From positions 1 through 64,000 of the IMG/VR virus record IMGVR_UViG_3300014204_000154: 64,000 bases of DNA; one strand, 5' to 3'. The position numbers and the translations under genes were made by a program. Source of the DNA: a virus. Its lineage: Duplodnaviria > Caudoviricetes. The notes beneath the pieces were generated by a model. It did not search any database, was not told the DNA's origin, and was given only the letters and a program-made list of their open reading frames with translations. Below, piece after piece: positions 25,606 through 63,694 of this stretch; within the stretch, counting starts at the first letter, position 1; every line of letters starts with the position of its first letter.

Positions 25606-25697
25606 CGATCAAATCCTCCTTAACAGAATAACAGGGAAATCAAATCAAGTCCCGGTCTTGACTAAATTATAACCCTGCTTTTGAAGATTCGCCGATT

Positions 25698-25898: not shown

Positions 25899-25900
25899 TT

Positions 25901-26970: not shown

Positions 26971-26982
26971 TTTTCGATCCTT

Positions 26983-27204: not shown

Positions 27205-27209
27205 TGTAT

Positions 27210-27774: not shown

Positions 27775-27786
27775 TTCAATTCCCTC

Positions 27787-28244: not shown

Positions 28245-28372
28245 AATAAACGCCCCATCAAATTATTTGGATTGGGCAGGTCCGGGCTGGCTACCAGATG
28301 CGGAAGGCTTCCCTATATTCGCAAGATTAACTCCTGCCCATTTCACTTATTATATCCCTGCCTGTTTATTTC

Positions 28373-29281
28373 TCAAAGAAAATCCTTCCCAATCTGGATC
28401 AACTGGTTCATCCCGCCCCGATATCCATACTTGTCGCTGTATCGATTCAGAACCCAAGTCAGATAAAACAGATCCTTCGGTTTGACCCCTTTGCCTTTTA
28501 GGATATCGGCATACATTCGATTGTAGCAGCCCTGCATATCGACCTTCATGATGTCGAATTCAACCGCTTGAATTCGTTCGGGCAAATCGATAGACCATTT
28601 CAATTGATCTGAACTGGGTCTGAATCCTGCCCGTATCCAATCTGTCGATGTAAAAATCCCCTCTTTCTTCATAGCCATCATTTCAAAAAGTTCAAATGTT
28701 TTTGTCTCTGCTGGCCGCTGTTCTGTATAAACAACCTTTCTTTCCTGAATACCCTTCGGTAAGACAATCCCTTCAAACTCCGCTCCCAGCTGGATTGCCA
28801 GATCGATGTAGTGGATGAAGAATTCATAGAGGTTTCCTCCAGCCAATCTGGGATCGCCCTTCCAGGTCTTGAAAAATTCCCCATCCCGGATCATGACCGC
28901 CTTAACCAGATCCGCCTTCTTTGGCAAATCCTTGATCCACCGAAGCTGAAGCACGATGTTGATTCTGTCATCGTCAATCGGCGGCTCCCACGGAAGGCAA
29001 AGCGGCTTCTCACAGATCACATACTTGCCATGATCCAAAGCCATCTTGACATGTTCCCGATGAAGATGAGTCGGCGAGCAGATCACGATATATTCGACAT
29101 TATCATACATGCTTTCTGTGGGCAGAGCCTTGGAACAAAGCAAAAGAGGGGTTTTCAAATCAACATAATTGTCCATAAATGCAGTATCATGGATCCACTG
29201 AAGCCTTCCACCAACCGCTTTAATGGCCTCCTTATGTCTGGCCGCAATCGTTCCGTTTCCGATCAATCCGAAGTTAATCAT
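28373..29281 (-). CDS. Gfo/Idh/MocA oxidoreductase, WbpB/WlbA-like (UDP-GlcNAcA 3-dehydrogenase type)
   Basis: FGLIGNGTIAARH, ICSPTHLH, ICEKPL, VLQLR and TWKGD...GG..IHYID. Start moved to ATG 29281. Confidence 0.75.
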   Translation of the reverse strand: MINFGLIGNGTIAARHKEAIKAVGGRLQWIHDTAFMDNYVDLKTPLLLCSKALPTESMYDNVEYIVICSPTHLHREHVKMALDHGKYVICEKPLCLPWEPPIDDDRINIVLQLRWIKDLPKKADLVKAVMIRDGEFFKTWKGDPRLAGGNLYEFFIHYIDLAIQLGAEFEGIVLPKGIQERKVVYTEQRPAETKTFELFEMMAMKKEGIFTSTDWIRAGFRPSSDQLKWSIDLPERIQAVEFDIMKVDMQGCYNRMYADILKGKGVKPKDLFYLTWVLNRYSDKYGYRGGMNQLIQIGKDFL

Positions 29282-50775: not shown

Positions 50776-51699
50776 TTATTTTTGAGGAAGATTCGATAAC
50801 ATATAACACGCATATGTTATCCCACTTTTCCCACTAAATGACGGCAACCTTAAAAACTCCTCCAATATCAATGCCGCCATGTCGTCTTTTTTCCCATTTA
50901 CAAGGATGGCGGCCACATATCCTTGAACCCCCATTCTGATTTTCTCCGCATCGTCAGTGAGTGATCTTACAATCGCCGCTGTTTCCTTCCACGGCTTTCT
51001 GTTCAACAACGATTGAATCAGATCCTTTGTAACATGGCTCACGGCGGATCGAATCAATGAAATTGCTTCATCGTCATTTTCGATCCCGCGCACCGTATCC
51101 ATAGTGACCAGGATTTCCCTTGGGATTCCTTCACATGAATCGATGATTGCTTGGCGAACAGCGGGAGATAGCCGGAACCCTTCCTCATGACAAACCATTT
51201 TGATCAAAAAGGCTTGATCAATAACGGTCAATGGCGCAACTTCATAAACCTTGGCGCGGCTCTTAACCGTAGTTGGAACCTTGTTGAGATCTGTTGTACA
51301 CAAGGCAAAATAGCAAAACTCAGGCGGATTTTCCAATGTCTTGAGAAGAGAATCTGCCGCCGCACCAGAGAGACGATGACATTCGTCAATAATGTACATC
51401 TTATTTTTTCCATGAAGCGGATAACTTTGCGCAGCCTCCTTAATGGATCTGGCATTATCGACTCCGGTGTTGTCAGCAGCATCAATTTCCATCAAATCTA
51501 ACCCTTTGGCGCCAACGCTATCCCCAATCAACCGGGCAATGGTGGTTTTCCCACACCCTCTCGGTCCACAAAGCAGGAACGTCCTTGTGCGGGGAATTGC
51601 TGGGACAAGAGACTTTTTCAAGACCTCATTGCCAATCAAATCATCAAACGTTGCCGGCCGATACTTCAAGTGAAGCTCAACTCTCTTCTCCTCTGTCAT
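50776..51699 (-). CDS. dnaX: Clamp loader ATPase (DnaX-like)
   Basis: LKYRPATFDDLIGN, GPRGCGKTT, EIDAADNTGVD, IIDECHRLS and LLKTLENPP. Confidence 0.9.
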   Translation of the reverse strand: MTEEKRVELHLKYRPATFDDLIGNEVLKKSLVPAIPRTRTFLLCGPRGCGKTTIARLIGDSVGAKGLDLMEIDAADNTGVDNARSIKEAAQSYPLHGKNKMYIIDECHRLSGAAADSLLKTLENPPEFCYFALCTTDLNKVPTTVKSRAKVYEVAPLTVIDQAFLIKMVCHEEGFRLSPAVRQAIIDSCEGIPREILVTMDTVRGIENDDEAISLIRSAVSHVTKDLIQSLLNRKPWKETAAIVRSLTDDAEKIRMGVQGYVAAILVNGKKDDMAALILEEFLRLPSFSGKSGITYACYMLSNLPQK

Positions 51700-54600
51700 C
51701 TCAATCCTCCTATTGAATTAATCTTATCAGCAAAATTCCGTATACCCTCTTGAAATAATTTCTTATTTTCTGGATTCCTTAAAACGGAAGACGGATGAAG
51801 ACCCCAGCAAACCCACACTCCCTTGGAAGGTATCCATTCCGTTGTGCCACACAATTTCGTGATGCCGCCATCCTCGTTCTTGAAATACTTCAAAGCGACA
51901 TTACCCAAAGCCAGACACAACCTCGTTCCGGTATTCTTGATTTCTTCGTCAAGCCATCGGGAACAGGCAGCAATATGGATATCCTTTGGAGTCCTTGTTA
52001 TACTTGGGAAGCATTTAACCACATTCGTAACATGAAACTGCCTTCGCGTGAGACCATAGATGAACAACGTCTCCCAAAGAAGATCGCCAGAGCGCCCAAC
52101 AAACCCTTTCCCTTCAAGGTCTTCATTACTTCCCGGCGCTTCCCCGACAATCATTGCGTTGTAAATACCCATCGAAGGAAGCACCGGCTGTCTGGCTTCC
52201 CCCCTCAAGGCGCAATCCTTACAATAAAGCAATTCGACATCTCTCCAGCGTCTCTGAAGCACAAAGCATTCCCGGTCCTGCGGCTTTCCGATAATCGAAA
52301 CGATATCAAATGAAAAATATTTGGCCAAATCGCCAGTCGGTTCAGATCCGTCTAAACCGACCTCTTTGATGATTTTATCCATCTTGACAGAATGTTTCAC
52401 CGGCTCAAGATCGCCCAAGCTAAATGCCCTTTCATCCTTGACTCTATATTGAGCATAATCCCCAGCAGTTTTGTCTCCTATGCCTTTGATTTCTACAAAT
52501 GGGACATATATGTTGCCGTCTCTGGAAATCCATTGTTTGGCATCAGAAATCCCAAGCCGGGGCAAGATAACTTTCAACCCTCTTCGAAGCGCCTCTTTCA
52601 CCAAATCGTCTTTCTTGTCATCCTTCCCTAATGTAAGGTTGGCACAGATGAATTCGGCCGGGAAAAATAGTTTCAAAAAGGCGCACCAATAGGCAATTAT
52701 GGAATACTCAACTGAATGAGATTTATTGAAGGAATATCTCGCATGATTCTGAAGGGCTTCCCAAAATTCTATGGCTTCCTGCTCGTTAAACGTCTTCTGT
52801 TCCAAACATCCGTTAATGAATGCTTCTTCGTATGGCTTGAACTCCTTCGCATCCCTCTTCTTTCCAATAACCTTCCGGATCTTATCTGCTGTCGAATAAG
52901 GCAACCCTGCCACCAGATTGATCACCTGCATCACTTGTTCTTGATAAACGACGATTCCATATGTATTCTTTGTAATATTTTCATAAATCCGATTCTTCTT
53001 CTGCCATTTCGCTCCATGCTTCCTCTTAACATAATCATCAGTGAGACCACTATCCGATGGCCCCGGACGAACCAAAGCAATGACATCGCTCATCAACCCG
53101 AAATTTTCAATCCCAACCTGTTTTACAAGCTTGGTGGTCGAATATGTATTGAATTGAAAAACTCCTTCAGTTTCTCCTTTTGAGAGCATTTCAAATACTT
53201 GAGGGTTATCCAAGGAAATATGATCGAAATCAATTTCTTTTCCATGGTTTTTCAAAATCAATCGCCGACTCTCATTTAAAATTGAAAGAGTATTAAGACC
53301 AAGAGCGTCAAGCTTCATCAAGCCCATATATTCTGCGTCATCTTTTGCCCAATTGATAACATCCTGGTCTGATCTGATCGCAAGATTTCCTCTAGTCCCC
53401 AAAGTCAAATCTTCTGCAGAAACTATAATTGCTGCAGCATGCTGCGAATATCCTCGAATTTGGCCCTCAAGCCGAACAGCATAATCAACGACATTTGGAT
53501 ACTTATCAACAAACGGATGGCGTTGTTCTTCAATCGATTGTTGAACAGAATTGTTATCATTACCTTCGTCTTCAATAATTTTGACAAATTCATTTACTTC
53601 TGAAATCGGGACATCGAAAACCCGCGAAACATCCCTAACAATCCCCCTCCCCTTCATTCTTTGAAAAGTCGTAACCGATGCAATATGATTCTTCCCATAC
53701 AATTCCTCAAGATGCTGCCGAACCAATGGCCGTTTAACATCTTCGAAGTCAATATCAATATCTGGCAACCCTTGCCTTTCCTCGTCAATAAATCGAGAGA
53801 AGAGAAGGTCATACTTAATTGGATCGGCAACCCTAGTTATCCCCATCAAATAAGCAATCAAACTGCCCCCAACCGATCCGCGGCCAGGTCCTACGAAAAT
53901 GTCATTTTCTTTACACCATAATATCAACTCGTGGATTAAAAGGAAATAACGGATGAATTTTTTCTTCTTGATCAATTCAAACTCTTCCCAGAAACGATCC
54001 AGATATTTTTGATCCCATTCGGAAGATCCGAACAGCCGTTCATAGCCTTCAAAACATAACTTCTTCAAAAAATCTGGTTCTTGATCCTCTGGAACTGATT
54101 TAAGTGTTGGCAACCAAATGCTCTTTTCTTGAATAAAAAAAGACGAACACTTTTCAGCAATTGCCATTGCGTTCCGCATTGCCAAAAGATACTGACCCCT
54201 TAACAATACTCCTTGAGCAGCAAAAGCGTCCTTCATTTCCTGCTCGGATCGAAGGAAAAGACCTTGGATTTTGAATTTGAAACGGTCCTCCTCATTCCAT
54301 GTTTTCTTGGTCTGAATCGCCAACAAGACCTCTTGAAGATCACTATCGCCTTCATCAACATAATGGCAATCATTGGTAGCCACCATCTCTATTCCATATG
54401 TTTCATGAATCGAAACGCAAAATTGATTAACAGACAATTGATCCGGGAATGAATGCGGCATAACTTCCAGATAAACGTCGCCTGGGATCTTCTCATTCAA
54501 TCGAAGAATAAAGTTATATCCAGACTTATCCAACAATGGCGTGGCCGCACAGCCGGAGAGGAAAACAAGACCGTCACAATGATCCAGAATGAAATTGAAA

Positions 54601-54950
54601 TCCGCTCTTGGCCTTGAATAGAATCCTTTCAAATTTGCCACAGTAAGAATCTGACAAAGGTTCTGGAATCCTTTCTCATCCTTGATTAACGCCGTAACAT
54701 GAAAGCGGTGATCAGAAGGAATCTTAACAACCATATCCGGAACAACATATAATTCACAACCATATATCGGAGTTATCCCGGCCTTCTTCGACTCTGATTG
54801 AAAATTCAACAACCCGTCTATATTGGCGTGATTGGTAAGAGCCAAATGGGTTTGCCCCAATTCCTTGGCCCTTTTCAGATATTGATCCGCTTTTCCAACG
54901 CCATCAAGGATAGAATACTCATTGTGGACGTGAAGATGGCAAAATGACAT
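51696..54950 (-). CDS. dnaE: DNA polymerase III alpha subunit fused to a C-terminal family-4 uracil-DNA glycosylase domain
   Basis: PHP HLHVHNEYSILDG, GRGSVGGS, PDIDIDF, KLDALGL, YSFNKSHS; then CKDC..VGEAPG..GFVGRSG..NVVKC..C..HPS. Confidence 0.93.
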   Translation of the reverse strand: MSFCHLHVHNEYSILDGVGKADQYLKRAKELGQTHLALTNHANIDGLLNFQSESKKAGITPIYGCELYVVPDMVVKIPSDHRFHVTALIKDEKGFQNLCQILTVANLKGFYSRPRADFNFILDHCDGLVFLSGCAATPLLDKSGYNFILRLNEKIPGDVYLEVMPHSFPDQLSVNQFCVSIHETYGIEMVATNDCHYVDEGDSDLQEVLLAIQTKKTWNEEDRFKFKIQGLFLRSEQEMKDAFAAQGVLLRGQYLLAMRNAMAIAEKCSSFFIQEKSIWLPTLKSVPEDQEPDFLKKLCFEGYERLFGSSEWDQKYLDRFWEEFELIKKKKFIRYFLLIHELILWCKENDIFVGPGRGSVGGSLIAYLMGITRVADPIKYDLLFSRFIDEERQGLPDIDIDFEDVKRPLVRQHLEELYGKNHIASVTTFQRMKGRGIVRDVSRVFDVPISEVNEFVKIIEDEGNDNNSVQQSIEEQRHPFVDKYPNVVDYAVRLEGQIRGYSQHAAAIIVSAEDLTLGTRGNLAIRSDQDVINWAKDDAEYMGLMKLDALGLNTLSILNESRRLILKNHGKEIDFDHISLDNPQVFEMLSKGETEGVFQFNTYSTTKLVKQVGIENFGLMSDVIALVRPGPSDSGLTDDYVKRKHGAKWQKKNRIYENITKNTYGIVVYQEQVMQVINLVAGLPYSTADKIRKVIGKKRDAKEFKPYEEAFINGCLEQKTFNEQEAIEFWEALQNHARYSFNKSHSVEYSIIAYWCAFLKLFFPAEFICANLTLGKDDKKDDLVKEALRRGLKVILPRLGISDAKQWISRDGNIYVPFVEIKGIGDKTAGDYAQYRVKDERAFSLGDLEPVKHSVKMDKIIKEVGLDGSEPTGDLAKYFSFDIVSIIGKPQDRECFVLQRRWRDVELLYCKDCALRGEARQPVLPSMGIYNAMIVGEAPGSNEDLEGKGFVGRSGDLLWETLFIYGLTRRQFHVTNVVKCFPSITRTPKDIHIAACSRWLDEEIKNTGTRLCLALGNVALKYFKNEDGGITKLCGTTEWIPSKGVWVCWGLHPSSVLRNPENKKLFQEGIRNFADKINSIGGLR

Positions 54951-54979: not shown

Positions 54980-56017
54980 CTATTTGACCAGCGCGATGAC
55001 TCCGGCAAACTTGCCCGACTTGAAAAGAAGATAACGGTCATCCTTGGGATAATACTCCCGGCCTTGGGATAGGATGTTCATCAGAAAATTCGGATTGACC
55101 TTTAAGGAAGCTCCGGGAGGAAACGACCACTTGTCACTCTTGAGGAATTTCTCATTGATTTCTCCAAACTGCCGTTCTCCGTGAATAATCAAATTCCCCT
55201 TGGGATCAAGCGACAACAAAACAAACTCTCCCCCGTTTTCCCCGGCAGAGGAAAGGACAGCGGCCCGATCCAACGATTTGATCATGTCTTCCGGAAAAAG
55301 AAATGGCGCCCCCAACCCATCAAAATTGAGAAGGTTCTTGATTCCCTCCCTTGGGAAATCGCCTTTCCTCTTCCGAACACTAAACAAAACTCCGTCTTGT
55401 GATCGGAAATGAAGCCAACCCTCAACGGACGAAAACGATTCCATGTTACCAAATTTCAAGATTTCGCCAACCGCCTTGATGGGCAAAATCGATTCGTCTT
55501 CAACCGGGATTGACATTTCGTAAAATCCTGCGCGGAACCCGTCCGTGGCCGCCAATCCATCCGGTCCAATTGACACGCCGCATCGCGCAGGGAATGCTGA
55601 ATTGGTTGCCGCAAAGCCTTCTACCAATGCCAGCCCATTCGTGAAATCCGCTGGCAATTTGACCCATTTAATGTCAGAGAGAGACAGGTTATCCACCATG
55701 GCAAGGATCGAAGCTGGATTTGACGACACCATCTTCAAAACCGTCTTCCCCCCGGAAACTTGAATTTTGTTCTCATCAAGCAGCACAAGCCTGATTTCTT
55801 CCGTATCGATCTTGGAAACGATCTTGAAGAATTCGACTGCCCGAACAAGGCAACGGACCTCTGCCTTAAACGGTATCGAAACGGAAATGTCATCATTGAA
55901 GGTCTTGATCCATTCCGTATCGAACATGAAAGAATCCGCCCCTTCAAGCAATACATTCTTACTTTCCACTCCCGGCATAACCTTCTTCAACGCTTCCAGC
56001 AATTCAACCCTCTTCAT
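54980..56017 (-). CDS. dnaN: DNA polymerase III beta sliding clamp-like protein
   Basis: About 345 aa with three-domain clamp pattern (ELLEALKKV, ATDGFR, GDFP, LDRAAVLS, VNPNFL). Start moved to ATG 56017 (SD GGAGG). Confidence 0.8.
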   Translation of the reverse strand: MKRVELLEALKKVMPGVESKNVLLEGADSFMFDTEWIKTFNDDISVSIPFKAEVRCLVRAVEFFKIVSKIDTEEIRLVLLDENKIQVSGGKTVLKMVSSNPASILAMVDNLSLSDIKWVKLPADFTNGLALVEGFAATNSAFPARCGVSIGPDGLAATDGFRAGFYEMSIPVEDESILPIKAVGEILKFGNMESFSSVEGWLHFRSQDGVLFSVRKRKGDFPREGIKNLLNFDGLGAPFLFPEDMIKSLDRAAVLSSAGENGGEFVLLSLDPKGNLIIHGERQFGEINEKFLKSDKWSFPPGASLKVNPNFLMNILSQGREYYPKDDRYLLFKSGKFAGVIALVK

Positions 56018-56765
56018 AAACCCCTCCATTCGATGCCAAAGAAAAGACCTTGAAAACCCGGAATGGGCGCAACTTCATCTTAAAATGATAAAGATTGTCA
56101 TCCCCCAAACAACCGCCATCGTTGACCAACTTATCGTCGCCAATATGGGTATAGAACAAAAGCCGCATATATTCGCTCAAGAATTGCCCCGGATAGCAAA
56201 AGCAATACCGATAATTCACAAATCTATGATTTGAATCCCAAATATTCACGCCATATATCGCGCCGTTCTGATCAACCAAAACCCAACGATTCTTCCCCGA
56301 ATCGATATATTTCAAAATGACATCGGCATCCTGAACAATTCTTTCCCGACCTTCTAGCCAAGAAACCATCAAGGCGCTCAAATCATCGGTGGGGGTGGCT
56401 TCTCTATACAGGAGGGTCAATTCAGGATGTCTAGCCGCAAATTTGCGCGAATTCTTGCGAAAAACGGCAACGTCCCCTCCCGTCAAATTGCGGAACAACG
56501 CCGGCATATACAAAAAATTATAATCAAGAAACTCCCCGGAAGATAAACCCGGCAAGGAAGACCAAACGGGAACTGAACAATGATGAACAATCCCCGTCTT
56601 CAATTCTATCGGCGGCAACATCAAGTGGCCTTCTGAATCGGAAACGTACACCGAACCGCCTGAAGTGTACGTTTCCCATCCAGCCGCTTCAAAATATTCT
56701 TCAGAGCACCAAAAATTCGGATCGATTCGAAAGCGCTCCAAAGTCTCAAGGTATTTATTTGTCAT
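56004..56765 (-). CDS. DUF2156 / MprF-C-terminal-like GNAT aminoacyl-tRNA-dependent transferase
   Basis: DYNFLY..L.GG..FRKN.RKF and VNDGGCLG..LYHFKMKL.P match the DUF2156 layout; no TM segment. Start likely ATG 56765. Confidence 0.6.
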   Translation of the reverse strand: MTNKYLETLERFRIDPNFWCSEEYFEAAGWETYTSGGSVYVSDSEGHLMLPPIELKTGIVHHCSVPVWSSLPGLSSGEFLDYNFLYMPALFRNLTGGDVAVFRKNSRKFAARHPELTLLYREATPTDDLSALMVSWLEGRERIVQDADVILKYIDSGKNRWVLVDQNGAIYGVNIWDSNHRFVNYRYCFCYPGQFLSEYMRLLFYTHIGDDKLVNDGGCLGDDNLYHFKMKLRPFRVFKVFSLASNGGVYEEG

Positions 56766-56883
56766 CAAGACCCAATCCCTTGTCTGCCGCCTTTTGCGTT
56801 GCGTTCTTACTGGCCTTGCCACTCTTGATCTTATCGATCAACTTCTTTGATATCGTTCCAGTTTTCCGACTCTTTCCGCCCAT
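56755..56883 (-). CDS. 42-aa Lys-rich peptide
   Basis: Hand translation MGGKSRKTGTISKKLIDKIKSGKASKNATQKAADKGLGLDDK, after a perfect AAGGAGG SD. Not in the ORF track. Confidence 0.6.
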   Translation of the reverse strand: MGGKSRKTGTISKKLIDKIKSGKASKNATQKAADKGLGLDDK

Positions 56884-56901
56884 AATCACAATCCTCCTTA
56901 A

Positions 56902-57683
56902 TTATAATTTTAATCCTCTTGTAAGGATTTTCCATGCCAATTCAACCACTGATGGAATTTGCCCATTGCCAATGGCTTTAATTCTGTCCAGTTTATCGGC
57001 CAATCCATCATCCATTCGGCAAAGCAAGGGTGAACATGTATATGCTTCTCTGGGCATTTTTGATGGTTCTTCAAATTCAATTCCATTCCAATTAAATAAT
57101 GGGAAAGGCGGGTAGTCGATTGCCAAGTTTCTGTTGTCCGGATATTCCCATTGGCAAATTGAATCGCTTCTGAACTCATGACTGTAGGCAAGAATCCACA
57201 ATCGTTTCCTCTCATGCGGTGCTCCAACATTATCCCCTCCCACAAGGCACCATCGACAATCATACCCAATTGAGGAAATATCTGCAAGGATTCTTCCGAA
57301 ATAAATGGTAGAGATGAGCCCTGAAACATTTTCCAAAAATGCAAATTTTGGTCGTATTTTCCCAATAACCTCAAAAGTTTCAGGCCACATATTGCGACTA
57401 TCCAATTCTTTTTTACGCTGCCCTGACATTGAGAATGGTTGACATGGGAATCCTCCTGAGACAACATCAACCAATCCCTTATAGCTGTCGGCGAACCCTT
57501 CATCAATGAATGTTTTGATATCGCTGAATATGGGAGCATCATCTAAAATACCATCCTGAATTCTTTGAGCAATTAATCTTTGACAAAAATCATTCCATTC
57601 AACATAACCTAATGTTTTCCAGCCCAACAATTTAGAACCAAGAAGACCGCCACCCCCCCAGAAAACAAAGATAATTCCTTCAT
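56902..57683 (-). pseudogene. C5-cytosine DNA methyltransferase alpha polypeptide, frameshifted at a G7 tract
   Basis: ATG 57683 gives MKELSLFSGG then stops after 24 aa; one extra G restores FSGGGGGLLG (motif I) in frame with GGFPCQ, ENV, PHERKR and AIGNG (motif X). Confidence 0.8.
56910..57542 (-). CDS. Nested beta polypeptide of an EcoHK31I-type two-subunit C5 MTase (motif IX)
   Basis: A 210-codon open frame inside the alpha gene ending in HPCFAEWMMDWPINWTELKPL. Possible start ATG 57329, overlapping the ENV codons. Confidence 0.65.
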   Translation of the reverse strand: MMLPYSAISKHSLMKGSPTAIRDWLMLSQEDSHVNHSQCQGSVKKNWIVAICGLKLLRLLGKYDQNLHFWKMFQGSSLPFISEESLQIFPQLGMIVDGALWEGIMLEHRMRGNDCGFLPTVMSSEAIQFANGNIRTTETWQSTTRLSHYLIGMELNLKNHQKCPEKHIHVHPCFAEWMMDWPINWTELKPLAMGKFHQWLNWHGKSLQED

Positions 57684-57686
57684 TTT

Positions 57687-58394
57687 TTACTTTCCCAAAA
57701 CTTCAATCCTGCCCAACTCATCAAAAAGACACCAACTTAACAGACCAGTCAAGTCGGTTGTCTTTCCCTTCACAATGAAATAATTTCCGCCCGGAACGAA
57801 CGAAAAGGACAATTCCTGATCATAATTGAACAGAGCGTCCAAATCAACCGTCCGGATACCGATTGGCTCAAACCTCTCCAACTTCTCCTGAGACGCAAAA
57901 TCAAGACCGCTGGCGTCATTTACAATTTCAATGATGGTTCCTGAAAAGATATCGCGCTGGACAACCTTCAACCCGTTGTCCCAATGAATCTCCACATGGC
58001 TTAAATCATCCTGCAAGGCGCTCATAATCGCCTTCCGGAGAGTAAATCTTGAAGTCGCCTTCTTCCGGGCATAACGATAATACAACCGAAATATTTCATC
58101 AAAGGAAAGCGACTTACTTGACCCACACTTCTTCTTCCGAACATAGCCGTCTTGAACCGTCTTGAAAACAATTGAATCCCCTTCAACGTAAAAATTCGCC
58201 GAATCATAATCATTGGCGTCAAAAATGACGGTTTCCTTAAACGCGGCGCTTGTCTCCGGAAGGGCAAACCTCAACAGAATCGTCCTATCAGAATTGATAA
58301 CCAAAACGTCACGCTCATTGCAAAGAATGGTGTTTCTCATCCTTCCACTCTGGTCAAGCGCCGCCGCATATGAAAAAATTTCTTCCCTGTCCAC
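57687..58394 (-). CDS. Hypothetical protein (235 aa) in the modification/replication block
   Basis: ORF with SD GGAGGG; no family recognised. Confidence 0.6.
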   Translation of the reverse strand: MDREEIFSYAAALDQSGRMRNTILCNERDVLVINSDRTILLRFALPETSAAFKETVIFDANDYDSANFYVEGDSIVFKTVQDGYVRKKKCGSSKSLSFDEIFRLYYRYARKKATSRFTLRKAIMSALQDDLSHVEIHWDNGLKVVQRDIFSGTIIEIVNDASGLDFASQEKLERFEPIGIRTVDLDALFNYDQELSFSFVPGGNYFIVKGKTTDLTGLLSWCLFDELGRIEVLGK

Positions 58395-58408
58395 TTTATT
58401 CCCTCCGT

Positions 58409-59092
58409 TTAATCAAATAGACCATTTTCTTCTTTACAGAACTTTTCGCATCCCAACCGTCCTGCTGCTCCGGCGCAATATTCCTCATCGATTTCAAAAG
58501 CATCCAACTTAAATCCCAAATCCCGACAAGCAATGGCGCTTGATCCACTACCCAAATGGGTATCGATAATAGTATAACCCGGTTTTGCGTATTTCTTTAA
58601 TAACCATTTATATAAAGCAACTGGTTTTTGCGTTGGATGAATTCTCTTTTCTTTGTTTTTCATATCTCCTTGTAAAAAACCTTGCCAACGATATGAAAAC
58701 ATGCGAGTTGATGTATCAAAAGAAGTCCAAGCCAATTCGCAATCAGCAAAATTATTTTTTCCATTAACTTTATCCCATACAATAAAACAATTTGTGTTTC
58801 TTAAAAATTCTATAAAATAATTACCCCCAAAAACAATCTGATGTTTGCTTATCCGAAATAATTCAACAAAAAAATCTCCTTTAGGAACTAAAGAATCCCA
58901 ATTTTTATATTCAATGTCTCTTCTAACAGAAGCCAAGCTGTCAAATTGCATTTTATAAGCTGCTTGAAAATTTTCAACATATGGAGGATCGACAATTGCC
59001 AAATCATACTTCTTATCTGGCATCAATTTCATTTCTGGAAGACAATCGCAACAAAAGATTCTTATGTCATCCTGTTCATAAAAAGGGTTCAA
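58409..59092 (-). CDS. N6-adenine DNA methyltransferase, beta class
   Basis: IVDPPY, IVFGGNYF, ADCELAWTSF, HPTQKPV and DTHLGSGS. Confidence 0.9.
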   Translation of the reverse strand: MNPFYEQDDIRIFCCDCLPEMKLMPDKKYDLAIVDPPYVENFQAAYKMQFDSLASVRRDIEYKNWDSLVPKGDFFVELFRISKHQIVFGGNYFIEFLRNTNCFIVWDKVNGKNNFADCELAWTSFDTSTRMFSYRWQGFLQGDMKNKEKRIHPTQKPVALYKWLLKKYAKPGYTIIDTHLGSGSSAIACRDLGFKLDAFEIDEEYCAGAAGRLGCEKFCKEENGLFD

Positions 59093-60502
59093 TCAAACAA
59101 CCCTCCTCAGCATTTCCTCTCGGAAATCGTATTTTGGATCATAGACCCAAACAAGGCCATCCCTATCCTGCCCCACCGGCCGCAGACCTGCCGCCCAATC
59201 GATGGAAAATGAAGTGTCTCCCATAAGGTTCCAAAGATGCTTCACTTCATCCCGGAACGAATTGGACAGAAACCCATTCCCCTCGTTGACCCACTTCTCA
59301 AAATCGCTCCACGCCGTCTTCGCTCCCTTCCGGCTCACGATAAAACGGATGGCGCTGGTGGTATTCCCTGAACAAAACTTGGCGCGGCCAAACAGATCGC
59401 TGACCGAACAACAAATATCATCGTCGTTGGTTGGAACGTTCCCGGCATCGAAGGTGGAACACTCGATTCCACACTGCCGGAAATAATCCATATATTTCCC
59501 TAACAATAAAGACCCCAAAAATTGAGCCTTCGACATCATTTCATACATCCGTTCAAAGTCGTGACCCAGACGGGCGAAACTGTTCTTGATCCCCGATCCC
59601 GCCGCTGAATAGGAATAACAGTCAAACGTCATATGGCGAATTCCGGCTTCAAGAATCTGCTCAATATAATCGTCCGTCATTCCCTTCTCGTCATTCAAGA
59701 AGACCATGAACGGTTCAATCCTTGCGACAACCCGGACACCAGCATCACAAAGATTTTTGCACCCACGAATTCTCTCCTTGAAAGTCGGCGCTCCCGGCTC
59801 CAAACCTTTCAAGAAAGCTTCGTTGGATGAAATCATCGTAACGTGGACCGCCGCCCCTGCCCTATTCCGGGCAAACGCTTTCACATATTCATCATCGCCA
59901 ACAAGATCCGACTTCGTATTGACCATGATTGGATATTCGGCATCAGCAAGGAAATTCAGCATCTCCAGAGCTATCCTGTTTTTCGTCTCTATCGGCCGGA
60001 CAAAATCCTCAAAGCGAATTCCCAGCCGCAATGGCATCTCCATTGCTATCGCCTTTGAAACGTCCGCCAGATCCTTCTTCGATCCCCGATGCTTGAACAA
60101 CTCTGTCAATTCCTTCTTGAAGAAATCCGGAGAACAAACCCGCATCCCCATCCCCTTCGTATTGTCAAAAAAGGAAGAGTAAAGGCTGGCCCTGGCATAA
60201 TCGGCGAAGCAATACCGGCAACGATACGGGCAAAGCTTGGAGTCATAGATGTCCAGATTTAATGACATCGGACAAGCTTGAGACCTCAAGCTCACTTCGA
60301 TAAATGATTGCATTTCCTCAAGATTCAAAAGGCGCTCTTTCTTGATCATTTCGCCTTTCTCAAGATCAAACTGGAAATAATTCGACTTTCTCCCCTTCTC
60401 CTTAACGAGACTCTGCTTGTCCCGTTCTTCAACGAATACCGAAAGACGCGGAATTATTTTTGAAACCAGCTTTCTCAATTCCCAATAATTCATGTTATTC
60501 AC
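59093..60502 (-). CDS. Radical SAM enzyme (spore photoproduct lyase-like clade), paralog 2
   Basis: CPYRCRYC (CX3CX2C), NTKSDL, ARIEPF and a C-terminal CC. Confidence 0.85.
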   Translation of the reverse strand: MNNMNYWELRKLVSKIIPRLSVFVEERDKQSLVKEKGRKSNYFQFDLEKGEMIKKERLLNLEEMQSFIEVSLRSQACPMSLNLDIYDSKLCPYRCRYCFADYARASLYSSFFDNTKGMGMRVCSPDFFKKELTELFKHRGSKKDLADVSKAIAMEMPLRLGIRFEDFVRPIETKNRIALEMLNFLADAEYPIMVNTKSDLVGDDEYVKAFARNRAGAAVHVTMISSNEAFLKGLEPGAPTFKERIRGCKNLCDAGVRVVARIEPFMVFLNDEKGMTDDYIEQILEAGIRHMTFDCYSYSAAGSGIKNSFARLGHDFERMYEMMSKAQFLGSLLLGKYMDYFRQCGIECSTFDAGNVPTNDDDICCSVSDLFGRAKFCSGNTTSAIRFIVSRKGAKTAWSDFEKWVNEGNGFLSNSFRDEVKHLWNLMGDTSFSIDWAAGLRPVGQDRDGLVWVYDPKYDFREEMLRRVV

Positions 60503-60567
60503 GTGGCGGTCCTTTCACAAGATCGTCTAATGCAATAAAGTGGATTTGGATGCGGATGGGGAGGTTT

Positions 60568-61119
60568 TCATGGCTGCGCCGCCTCCAAAACTATATCGCT
60601 TTCTACCTCATTGCCCCACACATCCCATCCTTCAGTTTTCTGGCGAGCAAACAATTCGATACGATTCCCGCATGGATATAAACTTTCGATCATCCTGCGA
60701 GCAATTATCGGCTTACGAGAATGGATAGTTGCTGCTTCTCTCAAAACAGTTGTATATTTCCCTCTTTGCTCAACCGCCACTGGAATAAACTTACCCTTGT
60801 AAAGCCAAAGTAAATATTCATGTGAATATCTTACTGTAAAACAAGGGGCAACTCCATTTTCCTTATCCCATATAATCCGAGCATGAAGTCGATGCTGAGA
60901 GAAAAGTCTTTCCGCGTCCATTAGATATTTATCTATCGTCCAGAGAAAAAGAATATAATTGTCCTCAACGGGAACACTTTCAATAATGTTTTTAATGTCA
61001 GCGAGTTCTAACGTATTATAATCTAAACTTCTGCCTTGATGGGGCCTGCAATTCCTTAGTCCGCCTTTTTTTTGAACCCAAGGAGGATCAGCATAAATTA
61101 CTTGATATTTTTTATTCAA
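60568..61119 (-). CDS. MT-A70-family N6-adenine methyltransferase
   Basis: IYADPPW, LFLWT, HSRKP and IELFARQ..GWDVWGNE. Confidence 0.9.
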   Translation of the reverse strand: MNKKYQVIYADPPWVQKKGGLRNCRPHQGRSLDYNTLELADIKNIIESVPVEDNYILFLWTIDKYLMDAERLFSQHRLHARIIWDKENGVAPCFTVRYSHEYLLWLYKGKFIPVAVEQRGKYTTVLREAATIHSRKPIIARRMIESLYPCGNRIELFARQKTEGWDVWGNEVESDIVLEAAQP

Positions 61120-61139
61120 TTTACTCCTCCAATCCCGCG

Positions 61140-61280
61140 TTACTTACCTTGCCAAATCCAAGCAGGCCGATCAACAGCAGCATCTCGATCTCGGGGCATG
61201 CCGCATTCGTCGCAAACCTCGATGCCGCCACCATCGGGCCAATCTTCGTTGTGAGTTTTCAAATGGCCGCATTTATCCAT
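61140..61280 (-). CDS. 46-aa Cys/His peptide (possible Zn binder)
   Basis: Hand translation MDKCGHLKTHNEDWPDGGGIEVCDECGMPRDRDAAVDRPAWIWQGK; starts 2 nt after the PLP gene stop. Confidence 0.5.
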   Translation of the reverse strand: MDKCGHLKTHNEDWPDGGGIEVCDECGMPRDRDAAVDRPAWIWQGK

Positions 61281-61281
61281 A

Positions 61282-62094
61282 TCACGCTCCTATATTCCAA
61301 AAAAGGATTGGCCCCTCAAGACTGTTTTTGTTTTGCTTTAACCAAGACCATGCTTTCAAATCGTAATACGGATTGCAAGGGAATGGACACCCCGTCACAA
61401 CTCTATCCGTGTATTCATATCCCATATCAATTAGTTTGAAATCCGGATCGTCCAATAAATAACCGGCCGCACCAACAATCTTCTCTCTTTTCTTGTTTTG
61501 TTGACAAGATTCTCTACAAAGAACCCCTCTAACTTTTATATTATACCCCTTTTCTCGGATTCCTCTTAAAACTCCTGCCGCCATCGTTCCAGAACCAATA
61601 CACATAACTATCGTCTGGAATCTATCCACGTTTGAGCACTTGACTTCCTTTGCAACCTCAACAACCGTCTCCAATAGCGGAAGACCCAATGGCAATAAGA
61701 CAGCCTTGGGCCCAAATTCCTCCGCAAGAGCGTTCCGGCTGATATAATAATTCACCTTCGCCATACCGGCCTTGACGTTCCTGATCTCAGCGCCGAATTC
61801 AATCCACTTGCTTTTATGATATTCAAGAACCTCGTGTGACTCTTTATAGACAGGGTTGTAAATAACGGCCGTCATGCCCAATTCTCTGGCTATGGCGCAA
61901 ATGCCAATGCCTGCCATAGAAATCGATGTTTCTGTATATCCAACAACAGTCACCCCTTCCCTCTTTAATTTCTGAAGATGTTTCTCCAATCCTCTTACCT
62001 TAGCAAAAGGAGGAAGAGGAGGAAGTGCACATAAATCTTCCCTTTTAACGTAAATCCCGTCATATTCCTCGATTGGAGTGTTATTTATTATCAT
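61282..62094 (-). CDS. Fold-type-II PLP-dependent enzyme (D-cysteine desulfhydrase / ACC deaminase-like)
   Basis: YVKREDL, FAKVRG (Schiff-base Lys), CIGSGTMAAG and YYDLKAW..LFWNIG. Confidence 0.8.
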   Translation of the reverse strand: MIINNTPIEEYDGIYVKREDLCALPPLPPFAKVRGLEKHLQKLKREGVTVVGYTETSISMAGIGICAIARELGMTAVIYNPVYKESHEVLEYHKSKWIEFGAEIRNVKAGMAKVNYYISRNALAEEFGPKAVLLPLGLPLLETVVEVAKEVKCSNVDRFQTIVMCIGSGTMAAGVLRGIREKGYNIKVRGVLCRESCQQNKKREKIVGAAGYLLDDPDFKLIDMGYEYTDRVVTGCPFPCNPYYDLKAWSWLKQNKNSLEGPILFWNIGA

Positions 62095-62651
62095 TCGTTA
62101 ACCGCCTTTGATGTCTTTCTTCGCTTTTGGGCAGCAAATTTAAGTTTATTGACATGTTCCTCAGAAAGCTTCTTCCCTTTCCAAAACGATCCTCCTCCGG
62201 GATGTCTCGCATGGTTTCTTCTATATACATCATCCTGCCATAATTTCTTAGTCAATGCGCTTTGCTTCTCTCGTTCACCATCATTTTCATATCTTCTCAA
62301 CGTAACAATCCTTGCTTTCTCTGATTGAGATTTTCTCATACTTTCAGTCCAATTAATTATTCCCAATCCTCCTTCCACCATATTATATCCATTAGGAACA
62401 ATGGAATTGTTTTCTTTGATATAATCTCGTTCCAACTCTCCAGCTTCCTCCGGAGTCAATCCACTATGCAATAAAACCATATAGAAATTATTGATGCCGT
62501 ATTTCCGAATAGAACTATGAAGGGCATACAAACTTCCAGATTTAACTTTATCCAAATGAGCCTTCCAACGACTCTTAATTGATTGGCTAGTAACGCCAAA
62601 ATACTTTTTATGATTTATATTATTTTCAATAACATAAACAATATACTTCAT
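62091..62651 (-). CDS. GIY-YIG homing endonuclease (Seg-like) with NUMOD3-like tail
   Basis: IVYVIEN..YFGVT..RWKAH..E..YI..GYN; KGKKLSEEH. Start likely ATG 62651 (ATGA overlap). Confidence 0.85.
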   Translation of the reverse strand: MKYIVYVIENNINHKKYFGVTSQSIKSRWKAHLDKVKSGSLYALHSSIRKYGINNFYMVLLHSGLTPEEAGELERDYIKENNSIVPNGYNMVEGGLGIINWTESMRKSQSEKARIVTLRRYENDGEREKQSALTKKLWQDDVYRRNHARHPGGGSFWKGKKLSEEHVNKLKFAAQKRRKTSKAVNE

Positions 62652-63694
62652 AATAGTCCGCAATCCTTTAGCGAATACATATCTGGTTCCTTGCCATCAA
62701 AAACTCTTCTGCCCTGTTCAAGATCGCCGATCCCATCCCAACTCGATTGAAAGACCTCTTCCCGGTCTTCCCCCGCTAAGATCCGCCGTTTAAAATTGAT
62801 CAAATTGAATGTAGTGGGATTTGGCACCGTAACGCCGCAACAGGTGTTTGTTGATTCCCTATACAGACCGGAGTTAACAAAGTCAGGACAGCCCAAAACG
62901 ATGCCATATTTCTTGGCAATCTCGATAAGCTGAACCAAGATCGGTTTCCAATATTGATCCCGGTTATGAAACCAAATCTTCTCAATATCAATCCCGATCC
63001 CATGGAGGCGCTTAGCAACGAAGTCGTTGAAGTGAAAATTGTAGGTGTTATAATTCAAGATCCCATGGGATTTTAGCCGACGCATTAAGGATCGGAATTG
63101 AGCCACGGTATGATACCCTGGAATGAAAGGTTCTCCGTTGACTCCCACCCTAACGCCGTTGCTCTTCAAAAGCAATATGTGAACAATCCGATCCTCAACC
63201 GGAGTCGTGCACCGCCGTTCTAATACCTCCCAATCGCTTTCCGCTCCCGGAGATATAATTGGCTGGACAATGCAAAGATCCTTCATCCGGACGATATCAT
63301 CAAAATAATCCATCATGACTTCGGTGAACATGGTCTGAATCAAAAACGACCACCGATGCCCCTCAAGAATTTTCAAGACCTCTCCGGATACGCGGTGAAT
63401 CCGCTCCGCTGATTGAAACGGATCTGCTTTGTTGCCAAACCGAATTGTCTTCTTATGATGCAGCGCCCAAGCCAGAGAGGATCGCGGATTTTTGTTTTTC
63501 AACCCGTTTGACAATGTTCTTGAAAAGGATTCGATATCCAGAGGCTTCAAATCGTACCCCCAGATGTGATTAAGACGGCGAAGATAGCAATGAAGGCAAT
63601 CCGCCTCGCAATTGCCATATGAATCAAGAGAAAATGACAATGGACAATAAATGGAATCGCCCCTGATTGTTAAGCCTTGTTTCAATCTTTCCAA
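62648..63694 (-). CDS. Radical SAM enzyme (spore photoproduct lyase-like clade), paralog 1
   Basis: CEADCLHC (CX3CX2C), RFGNKADPFQ, GEPFIPG and C-terminal TCCG. Confidence 0.85.
   Translation of the reverse strand: MERLKQGLTIRGDSIYCPLSFSLDSYGNCEADCLHCYLRRLNHIWGYDLKPLDIESFSRTLSNGLKNKNPRSSLAWALHHKKTIRFGNKADPFQSAERIHRVSGEVLKILEGHRWSFLIQTMFTEVMMDYFDDIVRMKDLCIVQPIISPGAESDWEVLERRCTTPVEDRIVHILLLKSNGVRVGVNGEPFIPGYHTVAQFRSLMRRLKSHGILNYNTYNFHFNDFVAKRLHGIGIDIEKIWFHNRDQYWKPILVQLIEIAKKYGIVLGCPDFVNSGLYRESTNTCCGVTVPNPTTFNLINFKRRILAGEDREEVFQSSWDGIGDLEQGRRVFDGKEPDMYSLKDCGLL

What the first reader, a model, noticed from the sequence alone, without database searches (positions are those of the whole stretch)
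56004..63694. Candidate DNA hypermodification module: two SPL-like radical SAM enzymes, a PLP enzyme and a soluble aminoacyl-transferase, directly upstream of the polymerase
Seen: rSAM1 (62648-63694), PLP fold-II enzyme (61282-62094), 46-aa Cys peptide, rSAM2 (59093-60502), 235-aa unknown and DUF2156-like GNAT (56004-56765), co-oriented with the clamp and DnaE-UDG. The two rSAMs share CP(L/M)S.(S/N)LD.Y before CX3CX2C and a C-terminal CC, suggesting paralogs or a heterodimer. Known: thymidine hypermodification in Pseudomonas phage M6 combines an amino-acid:DNA transferase, a radical SAM isomerase and a PLP enzyme; SPL acts on thymine in DNA; DUF2156/MprF-type domains transfer amino acids from aa-tRNA. 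Inference: a new base-modification route in which a DUF2156 enzyme supplies the amino acid. No hmU synthase, hmU kinase or aGPT-Pplase is visible in this window, so the substrate is unknown.
Basis: partly seen in the sequence, partly recalled or inferred. Interest (0 to 1): 0.85.

Follow-up and report, generated by a model that had tools for sequence, protein, structure and literature searches.

The report
Kinase-free phage DNA hypermodification module
An uncultured 84-kb phage carries, inside its replication genes, a conserved all-or-none gene set (two radical-SAM enzymes, an extra PCNA-like clamp, a tiny lysine-rich peptide, a tRNA-type amino-acid transferase, plus a PLP decarboxylase) that most likely puts an amino-acid-derived group on its DNA bases, without any of the enzymes that start the known pathways.

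Summary
The inventory needed correction. Four interspersed genes (a GIY-YIG homing endonuclease and three DNA methyltransferases) are lineage-specific insertions. The 46-aa Cys ORF is not conserved. The "235-aa unknown" is a PCNA-like clamp-fold protein. A conserved 42-aa peptide (MGGKSRK... head, 56755-56883) was missed.

The core is rSAM1, rSAM2, PCNA-like protein, peptide and DUF2156-like transferase. It is kept in this order between DnaB and the beta-clamp in more than 40 distinct IMG/VR contigs and is all-or-none. Sister phages lacking it carry a 7-deazaguanine (DpdA/QueCDE/FolE) cassette or a TAGT DNA glycosyltransferase in the same slot.

The PLP enzyme is a full-length homolog of phage M6 gp52, and some relatives carry a PaMx11 gp47-like flavoenzyme instead. 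The DUF2156 call holds by fold (2hqy Z 21.5; MprF, FemX).

No thymidylate-synthase-type hydroxymethylase, 5-hmdU kinase, amino-acid:DNA transferase or TET/JBP enzyme occurs in this 94%-complete genome or in 7 relatives at least 93% complete. I therefore read it as a DNA hypermodification pathway with a new entry route. The target base and step order are inferred only.

This scan has flagged the same module in at least 10 other genomes. I found no paper describing it.

The parts
62648..63694 (-). rSAM1: SplB/COG1533-like radical SAM enzyme, core gene. CX3CX2C at C29/C33/C36, plus invariant C17, C269, C285, C286 (possible second cluster).
   Evidence: (phrog_13321; PA0069-like at 50 bits, far below cut-off). 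Distant homology to M6 gp53. Present in 38/41 loci.
62091..62663 (-). GIY-YIG homing endonuclease. An insertion between rSAM1 and PLP, not part of the conserved module.
   Evidence: Pfam GIY-YIG 4.9e-10 and phrog_314 3.7e-31. Absent at this position in relatives.
61282..62094 (-). Fold-type II PLP enzyme, homolog of phage M6 gp52 (the Calpha-glycinylthymidine decarboxylase). An optional tailoring gene of the module.
   Evidence: tblastn 37% identity over 100% of length to M6 and related phages. phmmer 1.3e-50. Lys32 (= M6 K36), the SGT loop and C-terminal motifs are shared. Present in 21/41 loci. Function of gp52: PMC8989533.
61140..61280 (-). 46-aa ORF with CxH...CxxC (small Zn-ribbon-like). 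Lies next to the MT-A70 insertion and is not conserved.
   Evidence: In the closest relative, PLP abuts rSAM2 directly.
60568..61119 (-). MT-A70-family DNA methyltransferase (insertion).
   Evidence: Pfam MT-A70 5.2e-14, phrog_359 1e-39. Not conserved.
59093..60502 (-). rSAM2: paralog of rSAM1 with an N-terminal extension of about 75 aa, core gene. CX3CX2C at C91/C95/C98, plus invariant C77, C123, C364, C365.
   Evidence: Present in 41/41 and 44/44 loci. About 60 clusters at 50% identity with E<=1e-30 in 1.84 billion representatives.
58409..59092 (-). N6_N4 DNA methyltransferase (insertion). Similar MTases sit at varying positions in relatives.
   Evidence: Pfam N6_N4_Mtase 7.3e-14, phrog_23224 3e-43. 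Cluster of 11 at varying positions.
57687..58394 (-). PCNA-like two-domain sliding-clamp-fold protein, core gene. It is additional to the phage's beta-clamp.
   Evidence: AF2 model pLDDT 85.4. All top Foldseek PDB hits are PCNA/Rad9/beta clamps, E about 4e-9. The Atlas structure search agrees. Never found without rSAM2 plus DUF2156-like (44/44). Absent from all 37 module-less sister loci.
56902..57630 (-). C5-cytosine-methyltransferase-like ORF (insertion). Matches only profile positions 27-168 of 324.
   Evidence: Pfam DNA_methylase 3.4e-25, phrog_363 3e-44. Not conserved.
56755..56883 (-). Conserved 42-aa Lys-rich peptide gene, core gene. It has an invariant head GGKSRK.G..S..L(I/V), a Lys-rich middle and a short hydrophobic/acidic patch near the C-terminus. 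Its stop overlaps the start of the DUF2156-like gene.
   Evidence: Eight residues are invariant despite synonymous codon switches (Ser AGY/TCN, Arg AGR/CGN), and there is a GGAGG-type SD upstream. Always between the PCNA-like and DUF2156-like genes. Module-specific. C-terminal patch in 47/73 versus 1.6 expected, using a post-hoc motif.
56004..56765 (-). Soluble DUF2156/MprF-C-domain-like tandem-GNAT protein, a predicted aminoacyl-tRNA-dependent aminoacyl transferase, core gene.
   Evidence: AF2 pLDDT 92.7. Foldseek: 2hqy, MprF, L-PGS/A-PGS, Sbb17, FemX. VIA: 2hqy Z 21.5 over 243 aa, MprF Z 15-16. 18/43 family members hit PF09924. Family of 267 proteins.
54980..56029 (-). Beta-type sliding clamp (replisome backbone), the downstream boundary of the slot.
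   Evidence: phrog_947 7e-25. Downstream of the module in 46/47 loci.
51696..54950 (-). DnaE polymerase with a C-terminal family-4 UDG domain (context).
   Evidence: NCBIfam TIGR00594 1.3e-216 and TIGR00758 1.7e-29 at residues 910-1071.

Best explanation
This is a post-replicative DNA base hypermodification cassette with a new entry route.

Shown here:
- A five-gene core (rSAM1, rSAM2, PCNA-like clamp protein, 42-aa peptide, DUF2156-like transferase) is inherited as an all-or-none unit in the DnaB-to-beta-clamp slot of a diverse phage lineage.
- The same slot holds known DNA-modification cassettes in sister phages.
- The variable genes between rSAM1 and rSAM2 are homologs of enzymes that trim amino-acid-thymine conjugates in DNA: an M6 gp52-type PLP decarboxylase (in this window) or a PaMx11 gp47-type flavoenzyme. 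Other variable genes are an aldo/keto reductase, an amidoligase and methyltransferase-fold proteins.
- All enzymes that start the known pathways are absent.

Inferred mechanism:
1. The two SplB-like radical-SAM paralogs, each with conserved extra cysteines that could hold an auxiliary cluster, do the C7/thymine-type radical chemistry that SPL and M6 gp53 are built for. They activate an unmodified base in duplex DNA, most likely the thymine methyl group. This replaces dUMP hydroxymethylase plus kinase.
2. The DUF2156-like enzyme brings the amino acid from a host aminoacyl-tRNA. It either delivers it directly to the activated or aminated base, or first loads it on the invariant head of the small peptide. 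Mu Mom is the precedent for tRNA-dependent aminoacylation of DNA.
3. In this phage the gp52-like PLP enzyme then decarboxylates the appended amino acid to an amine.
4. The PCNA-like protein tethers the enzymes, and probably the peptide via its C-terminal patch, to newly replicated DNA.

The three methyltransferases and the homing endonuclease are later insertions into this island.
For: - Synteny and co-occurrence: rSAM2 41/41, PCNA-like 41/41, rSAM1 38/41, PLP 21/41, clamp downstream 46/47; 44/44 from the PCNA-like anchor.
- All-or-none: among 51 beta-clamp-anchored loci, 37 lack all five searched genes (rSAM1, rSAM2, PLP, PCNA-like, DUF2156-like), 14 have the core, and there are no partial patterns.
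- Slot equivalence: the close relative L142 (DnaE 50% identity) has a TAGT DNA glycosyltransferase there (PF20691 1e-47). Of 31 other relatives, 16-22 carry each gene of the QueE/QueC/FolE/QueD/DpdA-like set in that slot.
- PLP equals the M6 gp52 family over its full length with the catalytic Lys. gp52 and gp53 functions are experimental (PMC8989533).
- rSAM1 and rSAM2 profiles match M6 gp53 (hhalign prob 96 and 90).
- A relative's slot holds a homolog of the PaMx11 gp47-position flavoenzyme, and others hold Amidoligase_2 and AKR.
- DUF2156 fold.
- tRNA-dependent DNA aminoacylation precedent: PMC13219725.
- Absence of TS family, HMUDK, ADDT and Tet_JBP in this 94%-complete genome and in 7 relatives at least 93% complete, 4 of them with terminal repeats. 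The ADDT search was positive on the M6 control.
- DNA methyltransferases repeatedly insert into the module.
Against: - All evidence is contextual or by homology. No modified nucleoside has been observed.
- All loci come from one broad phage lineage with a syntenic replisome, so part of the co-occurrence is shared ancestry.
- Similarity of the rSAMs to gp53 is at radical-SAM-core level only. rSAM2 versus gp53 is not significant pairwise.
- DUF2156 enzymes with known function acylate lipids, not DNA. The window protein itself scores no Pfam hit.
- The adjacent invariant peptide could be the true acceptor.
- PLP is missing from half the modules, so the gp52 analogy covers only a subset.
- A host-supplied or unrecognised hydroxymethylase cannot be excluded.
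Confidence: 0.68

Rival explanations
1. Peptide-directed pathway (RiPP- or PEARL-like). The DUF2156-like enzyme aminoacylates the invariant GGKSRK head of the 42-aa peptide. The rSAMs, PLP and other tailoring enzymes then modify that residue. The end product is a modified peptide or a released small molecule (for example an anti-defence or replication factor bound to the clamp), not a modified DNA base.
For: The peptide gene is conserved, with an invariant 8-residue head under purifying selection. It is translationally coupled to the transferase gene. The fold relatives FemX, Sbb17, ATE1 and L/F-transferase acylate peptide or amine acceptors. Radical-SAM plus small-peptide neighbourhoods are typical of RiPPs (established knowledge).
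Against: The cassette occupies the slot that sister phages use for DNA-base modification. The tailoring enzymes are homologs of DNA-acting gp52 and gp47. A dedicated DNA-clamp-fold protein is an obligate member. The rSAMs belong to the DNA-acting SplB/gp53 branch. No protease, transporter or RiPP recognition element was seen.
Confidence: 0.14
2. Ordinary M6-like thymidine hypermodification that still starts from 5-hmdU. The hydroxymethylase, kinase and transferase would be supplied by the host, by the missing ~6% of the genome, or by proteins too divergent to detect.
For: gp52-like PLP and distant gp53-like rSAM. This contig is linear and 94% complete. 2 of 17 relatives have a TS-family hit.
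Against: TS family, HMUDK, ADDT and Tet_JBP are absent from the 7 relatives at least 93% complete, four of which have terminal repeats. The ADDT profile did detect M6 gp51. No M6 gp51/54/55/58 hit occurs in 41 loci. 5-hmdU kinases and ADDT are not known as host enzymes (established knowledge of these phage families).
Confidence: 0.06
3. DNA repair or replication accessory set. The SplB-like rSAMs repair UV or radical thymine lesions on a PCNA-like platform. PLP and the GNAT are unrelated neighbours.
For: COG1533/SplB-like similarity. Location within the replisome operon.
Against: Scores are far below the cut-offs of SPL-related families, with no SPL model hit. Linkage to an aa-tRNA-type transferase, a peptide and swappable PLP/FAD/AKR/amidoligase genes is obligate. 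Replacement by deazaguanine or TAGT cassettes argues for modification, not repair.
Confidence: 0.03

Closest known systems
Pseudomonas phage M6 (Yuavirus) 5-(2-aminoethyl)-dU pathway: gp58 dUMP hydroxymethylase, gp54/gp55 5-hmdU DNA kinase, gp51 amino acid:DNA transferase, gp53 rSAM isomerase, gp52 PLP decarboxylase (PMC8989533)
   Same: Full-length gp52 homolog (37% identity, catalytic Lys). SplB-like rSAM distantly related to gp53. The cluster lies among replication genes. Tailoring enzymes are swappable.
   Different: No hydroxymethylase, kinase or ADDT. Two obligate rSAM paralogs instead of one. Obligate DUF2156-like transferase, PCNA-like protein and small peptide. PLP is optional.
Pseudomonas phage PaMx11 5-acetylaminomethyl-dU pathway (gp46 ADDT, gp47 flavin lyase, gp48 GNAT acetyltransferase, gp49 kinase)
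   Same: A relative (L049) has a gp47-position FAD enzyme homolog (28-32% identity) in the variable slot. A GNAT-fold enzyme is part of the pathway.
   Different: This window has PLP, not FAD. The GNAT here is a tandem DUF2156 type predicted to use aa-tRNA, not acetyl-CoA.
Phage Mu Mom (Gly-tRNAGly-dependent N6-dA glycylation followed by on-base isomerisation; PMC13219725)
   Same: Works like: a phage GNAT-superfamily enzyme using charged tRNA to put an amino acid on DNA.
   Different: No sequence relationship (hhalign prob 0.1). Mom is a single-domain GNAT acting alone. Here a tandem-GNAT DUF2156 fold works with rSAMs, a clamp and a peptide.
DUF2156 / LPG_synthase_C (PF09924): MprF C-domain, L-PGS, A-PGS, and the soluble Bacteroides protein 2hqy
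   Same: Same fold over the whole protein (2hqy Z 21.5; MprF Z 15-16). Some family members reach the Pfam model.
   Different: Soluble, phage-encoded, with no flippase domain. The acceptor is presumably nucleic acid or peptide rather than phosphatidylglycerol.
Phage 7-deazaguanine (DpdA/QueC/QueD/QueE/FolE) and TAGT DNA-modification cassettes
   Same: They occupy the identical DnaB-to-clamp slot in sister phages. Presumed anti-restriction role.
   Different: Unrelated enzymes and chemistry.
Spore photoproduct lyase (SPL)
   Same: Radical-SAM core of the SplB/COG1533 branch, which handles thymine C7 radicals in DNA.
   Different: No SPL model hit. Extra conserved Cys pattern (CP[LM], CC). Two paralogs. 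Biosynthetic context.

Membership tests
M6-type thymidine hypermodification pathway | dUMP hydroxymethylase of the thymidylate synthase family (PF00303) | tested here: not met
   No match in the own genome. 0 of 7 relatives at least 93% complete and 2 of 17 overall. The control rang in 10 known genomes.
M6-type thymidine hypermodification pathway | 5-hmdU DNA kinase (PF18748, PF18723) | tested here: not met
   No match in the own genome or in 8 near-complete genomes. No phmmer hit of M6 gp54/gp55.
M6-type thymidine hypermodification pathway | Amino acid:DNA transferase ADDT / aGPT-Pplase2 (PF18724) | tested here: not met
   0 in the own genome and 0 in 17 relatives. The same search finds M6 gp51 at 2.3e-48.
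M6-type thymidine hypermodification pathway | gp52-type PLP decarboxylase | tested here: met
   37% identity over full length. phmmer 1.3e-50. Conserved Lys and motifs. Decarboxylase activity itself was not tested.
M6-type thymidine hypermodification pathway | gp53-type rSAM isomerase | tested here: inconclusive
   rSAM1 21% identity over 211 aa, E 2e-6 pairwise. Profile comparison prob 96 (rSAM1) and 90 (rSAM2) over the rSAM core only. rSAM2 pairwise is not significant.
DUF2156 / LPG_synthase_C aminoacyl-tRNA-dependent transferases | Match to Pfam PF09924 | tested here: inconclusive
   The window protein has no hit. 18 of 43 close family members hit, best 9.9e-7.
DUF2156 / LPG_synthase_C aminoacyl-tRNA-dependent transferases | Tandem-GNAT fold of the MprF C-domain / 2hqy | tested here: met
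   Model pLDDT 92.7. Foldseek E 2.5e-8 to 2hqy, then MprF, PGS, FemX. VIA Z 21.5 and 15-16.
DUF2156 / LPG_synthase_C aminoacyl-tRNA-dependent transferases | Uses aminoacyl-tRNA as donor | not testable with these tools
   Needs a biochemical assay. No dedicated tRNA lies near the module.
Spore photoproduct lyase | CX3CX2C radical-SAM motif | tested here: met
   Invariant in both families.
Spore photoproduct lyase | Reaches a curated SPL / SplB-family model | tested here: not met
   Only PA0069 and Rv2578c models hit, at 24-52 bits against cut-offs of 360-430. No SPL model is listed.
PCNA-type sliding clamp | Two tandem clamp domains | tested here: met
   Model pLDDT 85.4. Foldseek top hits are PCNA, Rad9 and beta clamps. 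Atlas structure rows agree.
PCNA-type sliding clamp | Forms a closed ring on DNA | not tested
   No oligomer model was made.
Mom family (Mu gp55) | Sequence or profile similarity to Mom | tested here: not met
   hhalign probability 0.1.
RiPP / PEARL-type peptide pathways | Conserved precursor or scaffold peptide next to the enzymes | tested here: met
   42-aa ORF with an invariant head in essentially all modules.
RiPP / PEARL-type peptide pathways | LanB-like PEARL ligase, leader peptidase or exporter | tested here: not met
   No such Pfam or PHROG family among the module genes of the window or the sampled variable-slot genes.

The most novel reading that the evidence does not exclude
An oxygen- and hmU-independent way to hypermodify DNA using a clamp-borne carrier peptide. 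The DUF2156-like enzyme loads an amino acid from host aminoacyl-tRNA onto the invariant GGKSRK head of the 42-aa peptide. The peptide rides on a dedicated PCNA-like ring through its C-terminal patch. The two SplB-like radical-SAM paralogs then join that amino acid by radical C-C or C-N coupling to an unmodified base (thymine C7) in duplex DNA. Swappable PLP, FAD, AKR or amidoligase enzymes finish it.
Probability: 0.15. Interest if true: 0.95.

Novelty: new variant of a known kind. Interest (0 to 1): 0.8.

Why it matters
Every characterised amino-acid or polyamine hypermodification of thymidine starts from 5-hmdU made at the nucleotide level, followed by a DNA kinase and a glycosylase-fold transferase. 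Metagenome surveys have used the kinase as their marker (PMC8989533), so they cannot see this module.

If the reading holds, a sizeable group of uncultured phages makes hypermodified DNA by radical-SAM chemistry on ordinary DNA, with charged tRNA as the amino-acid source. Here that group is more than 40 distinct loci, about 60 rSAM2 clusters at 50% identity and 267 transferase clusters at 90%. It would be a second tRNA-dependent DNA modification system after Mom. It would also be the first with its own clamp and a dedicated peptide.

It would add new bases and new enzymes for DNA labelling. It would also bear on phage resistance to restriction and on sequencing artefacts in anaerobic metagenomes.

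Tried and rejected
- Megablast of the region against 50,697 phage records: no match. tblastn of rSAM2 found one weak hit and tblastn of the DUF2156-like protein found none, so no cultured phage has the module.
- Profile searches of rSAM1 and rSAM2 against PDB sequences gave nothing meaningful.
- Complex prediction of the PCNA-like protein with the DUF2156-like protein returned no verdict (score 0.01). It is not used as evidence either way.
- The 189-aa ORF between DnaB and rSAM1 (genome 63779-64348) has no Pfam, PHROG or Atlas lead. Its family is poorly conserved, and it stays in the module-less relative L142. I therefore assign it to the replication backbone, not the module.
- Search for longer proteins carrying the peptide motif as a fused domain: none found, which is weak evidence.
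- No dedicated tRNA is conserved near the module.
- The scan of 185,579 species genomes with the rSAM2 profile gave only 5 MAG contigs and no host assignment.
- The idea that the 46-aa Cys ORF is a precursor peptide is rejected, because it is not conserved.
- The idea that the peptide's N-terminal glycine is the fixed acceptor is weakened. The head is preceded by 1-3 residues in different relatives.

Full report
**Observation.** The window is a phage genome piece. The whole record is one IMG/VR contig of 83,665 bases, estimated 94% complete. All genes are on the minus strand.

In transcription order, the region 64348 to 54980 encodes:
- a 189-aa unknown;
- rSAM1 (62648-63694);
- a GIY-YIG homing endonuclease (62091-62663);
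- a fold-II PLP enzyme (61282-62094);
- a 46-aa CxH...CxxC ORF;
- an MT-A70 methyltransferase (60568-61119);
- rSAM2 (59093-60502);
- an N6_N4 methyltransferase (58409-59092);
- a 235-aa ORF (57687-58394);
- a C5-methyltransferase-like ORF (56902-57630);
- a 42-aa ORF (56755-56883);
- the DUF2156-like ORF (56004-56765);
- the beta-clamp, DnaE-UDG4 and DnaX.

The endonuclease, the three methyltransferases and the 42-aa ORF were not in its list.

**What is conserved.** Loci were fetched with three anchors: rSAM1 (7 loci), the DUF2156-like protein (65 loci) and the 235-aa protein (58 loci). All show one gene order: DnaB, a variable small gene, rSAM1, a variable slot, rSAM2, the 235-aa gene, the small peptide, the DUF2156-like gene, then the beta-clamp.
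- Among 41 distinct loci with enough upstream sequence, rSAM2 and the 235-aa gene are present in 41, rSAM1 in 38 and PLP in 21. The other three loci carry another rSAM paralog plus a DUF362 protein.
- From the 235-aa anchor, 44 of 44 loci have rSAM2 and the transferase.
- The window's endonuclease and methyltransferases have no counterparts at those positions in relatives. They are insertions.

**All-or-none, and what sits there otherwise.** I anchored on the beta-clamp, which is backbone. Of 51 loci, 37 lack all five searched genes (rSAM1, rSAM2, PLP, PCNA-like, DUF2156-like) and 14 have the core. There are no partial patterns.
- The module-less close relative L142 (DnaE 50%, clamp 49% identity) has a single TAGT-family DNA glycosyltransferase between the 189-aa homolog and the clamp.
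- Most other module-less relatives carry QueE-like, QueC, FolE, QueD and DpdA-like genes in the slot. That is the known 7-deazaguanine DNA modification set.

The slot is thus a DNA-modification locus, and this cassette is one of its alternative occupants. This is the strongest contextual argument that the product is modified DNA.

**The parts.**
- *PLP enzyme.* It is a full-length homolog of M6 gp52 (37% identity, phmmer 1.3e-50). It has the predicted aldimine lysine and shares the C-terminal motifs. gp52 was shown experimentally to decarboxylate C-alpha-glycinylthymidine in DNA (PMC8989533).
- *rSAM1 and rSAM2.* They are paralogs (hhalign E 4e-20). Each has CX3CX2C and four further invariant cysteines. 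They hit only PA0069/Rv2578c (COG1533, SplB-like) models, far below cut-off. They match M6 gp53 at profile level over the radical-SAM core. They are not ordinary spore photoproduct lyases.
- *253-aa protein.* It models with pLDDT 92.7. Its best structural matches are the soluble DUF2156 protein 2hqy (Z 21.5), then MprF C-domains, aa-tRNA-dependent peptide synthases and FemX. 18 of 43 family members reach Pfam PF09924.
- *235-aa protein.* It models as a two-domain sliding clamp (pLDDT 85.4). The top matches are PCNA, Rad9 and beta clamps.
- *42-aa ORF.* It is a real gene. G2, G3, K4, S5, R6, K7, G9 and S12 are invariant in 48 versions despite synonymous changes, including Ser and Arg codon-family switches. 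A Shine-Dalgarno site precedes it, and its stop overlaps the transferase start. Its tail is Lys-rich, with a short hydrophobic/acidic patch near the end (post-hoc motif). That patch resembles clamp-binding tails, which is an inference.

**Variable slot.** Besides PLP, relatives carry:
- an aldo/keto reductase;
- a DAO-type FAD oxidoreductase, which by tblastn is a homolog of the enzyme at the PaMx11 gp47 position in Abidjanvirus phages;
- an Amidoligase_2 protein;
- methyltransferase-fold proteins with weak hits;
- in some loci, a third rSAM.

This swappable set is the same tool kit that trims amino-acid-thymine conjugates in known pathways (PMC8989533).

**What is missing.** There is no thymidylate-synthase-family hydroxymethylase, no 5-hmdU kinase, no ADDT/aGPT-Pplase and no TET/JBP enzyme. 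This holds for this genome and for 7 relatives at least 93% complete, four with terminal repeats. The ADDT search finds M6 gp51 as a positive control. The entry into the pathway therefore differs from every characterised thymidine hypermodification.

**Mechanism (inferred).** The SplB-like rSAMs most plausibly activate an unmodified base in DNA by hydrogen abstraction. SPL and gp53 both work through a thymine C7 radical, so the thymine methyl group is the likeliest target. The DUF2156-like enzyme supplies an amino acid from charged host tRNA. Mu Mom shows that tRNA-dependent aminoacylation of DNA exists (PMC13219725), although the two proteins are unrelated in sequence. In this phage the gp52-like enzyme would then decarboxylate the adduct. 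The PCNA-like protein would hold the enzymes, and perhaps the peptide, on new DNA.

Whether the transferase acylates DNA directly, caps an amine made earlier (as the PaMx11 acetyltransferase does), or first loads the peptide cannot be decided here. The target base is also unknown.

**Rivals.**
- *Peptide-directed (RiPP/PEARL-like) product.* This is the main rival because of the invariant peptide. The slot equivalence, the clamp and the gp52/gp47 homologs argue against it.
- *hmU-dependent pathway with hidden entry enzymes.* This is unlikely given the complete genomes.
- *Repair.* This does not explain the obligate transferase, the peptide or the tailoring genes.

**Novelty and prior notes.** No paper in the searchable library combines these elements. 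The published metagenome survey of thymidine hypermodification clusters was anchored on the kinase. No cultured phage and no isolate genome carries the module.

Within this scan, other agents flagged the same module in at least 10 other genomes and read it the same way. I took from them the lead to look for the small peptide and tested it here. The slot equivalence and the all-or-none pattern I established independently, before reading those notes.

**Limits.** No chemistry was observed. The complex prediction gave no verdict. The read-level test could not be run.

Noticed in passing
window 56902-57630 (-): The C5-cytosine methyltransferase-like ORF matches only profile positions 27-168 of 324 (PHROG 73-311 of 327), so it seems to lack the N-terminal SAM-binding part. 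Another first-stage note reads it as a gene-inside-gene alpha/beta methyltransferase.
   Followed up: no
window 62091-62663 (-): The free-standing GIY-YIG homing endonuclease is wedged between rSAM1 and PLP, overlapping both neighbours by a few bases. Together with three different DNA methyltransferases, this makes the module look like a landing pad for mobile and anti-restriction genes.
   Followed up: partly
L145:1125-8974 and about 20 other loci: Sister phages carry a full 7-deazaguanine set (QueD, QueE-like, QueC, FolE, DpdA-like) between DnaB and the beta-clamp. Several unknown genes (503, 215, 200 and 214 aa) lie in the same cassette.
   Followed up: partly
L142:6556-7653: A close relative has a TAGT-family (TET-associated) DNA glycosyltransferase in the slot. 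No TET/JBP or hydroxymethylase was seen within the 17.7 kb locus held (not specifically searched there).
   Followed up: no
L010:11004-12458, L011:11033-12493, L026, L054, L062: Some relatives have a third SplB-like radical-SAM gene (484-520 aa, phrog_13321) between the DUF2156-like gene and the beta-clamp.
   Followed up: no
L020, L027, L036, L074 (e.g. L027:4176-5030): In three to four relatives rSAM1 is replaced by a shorter rSAM2-like paralog (377-397 aa), preceded by a DUF362 protein (PF04015, 7e-36).
   Followed up: no
genome 63779-64348 (L002:79-648, -): A poorly conserved Lys-rich family of 180-270 aa always sits between DnaB and the slot. It stays in module-less relatives. Function unknown, possibly a replisome accessory.
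   Followed up: partly
L042:7310-7711 and 13 other loci: An unknown family of 133-148 aa recurs inside or just after the module in 14 loci. It has no Pfam or PHROG hit.
   Followed up: no
window 51696-54950 (-): DnaE polymerase carries a family-4 uracil-DNA glycosylase domain at residues about 907-1075.
   Followed up: no
window 22653-22729 (-): A single tRNA-Pro(TGG) gene lies far from the module. Other first-stage notes describe a nucleotide-sugar pathway (15316-29281) and a glycosyltransferase in the head operon in this phage.
   Followed up: no
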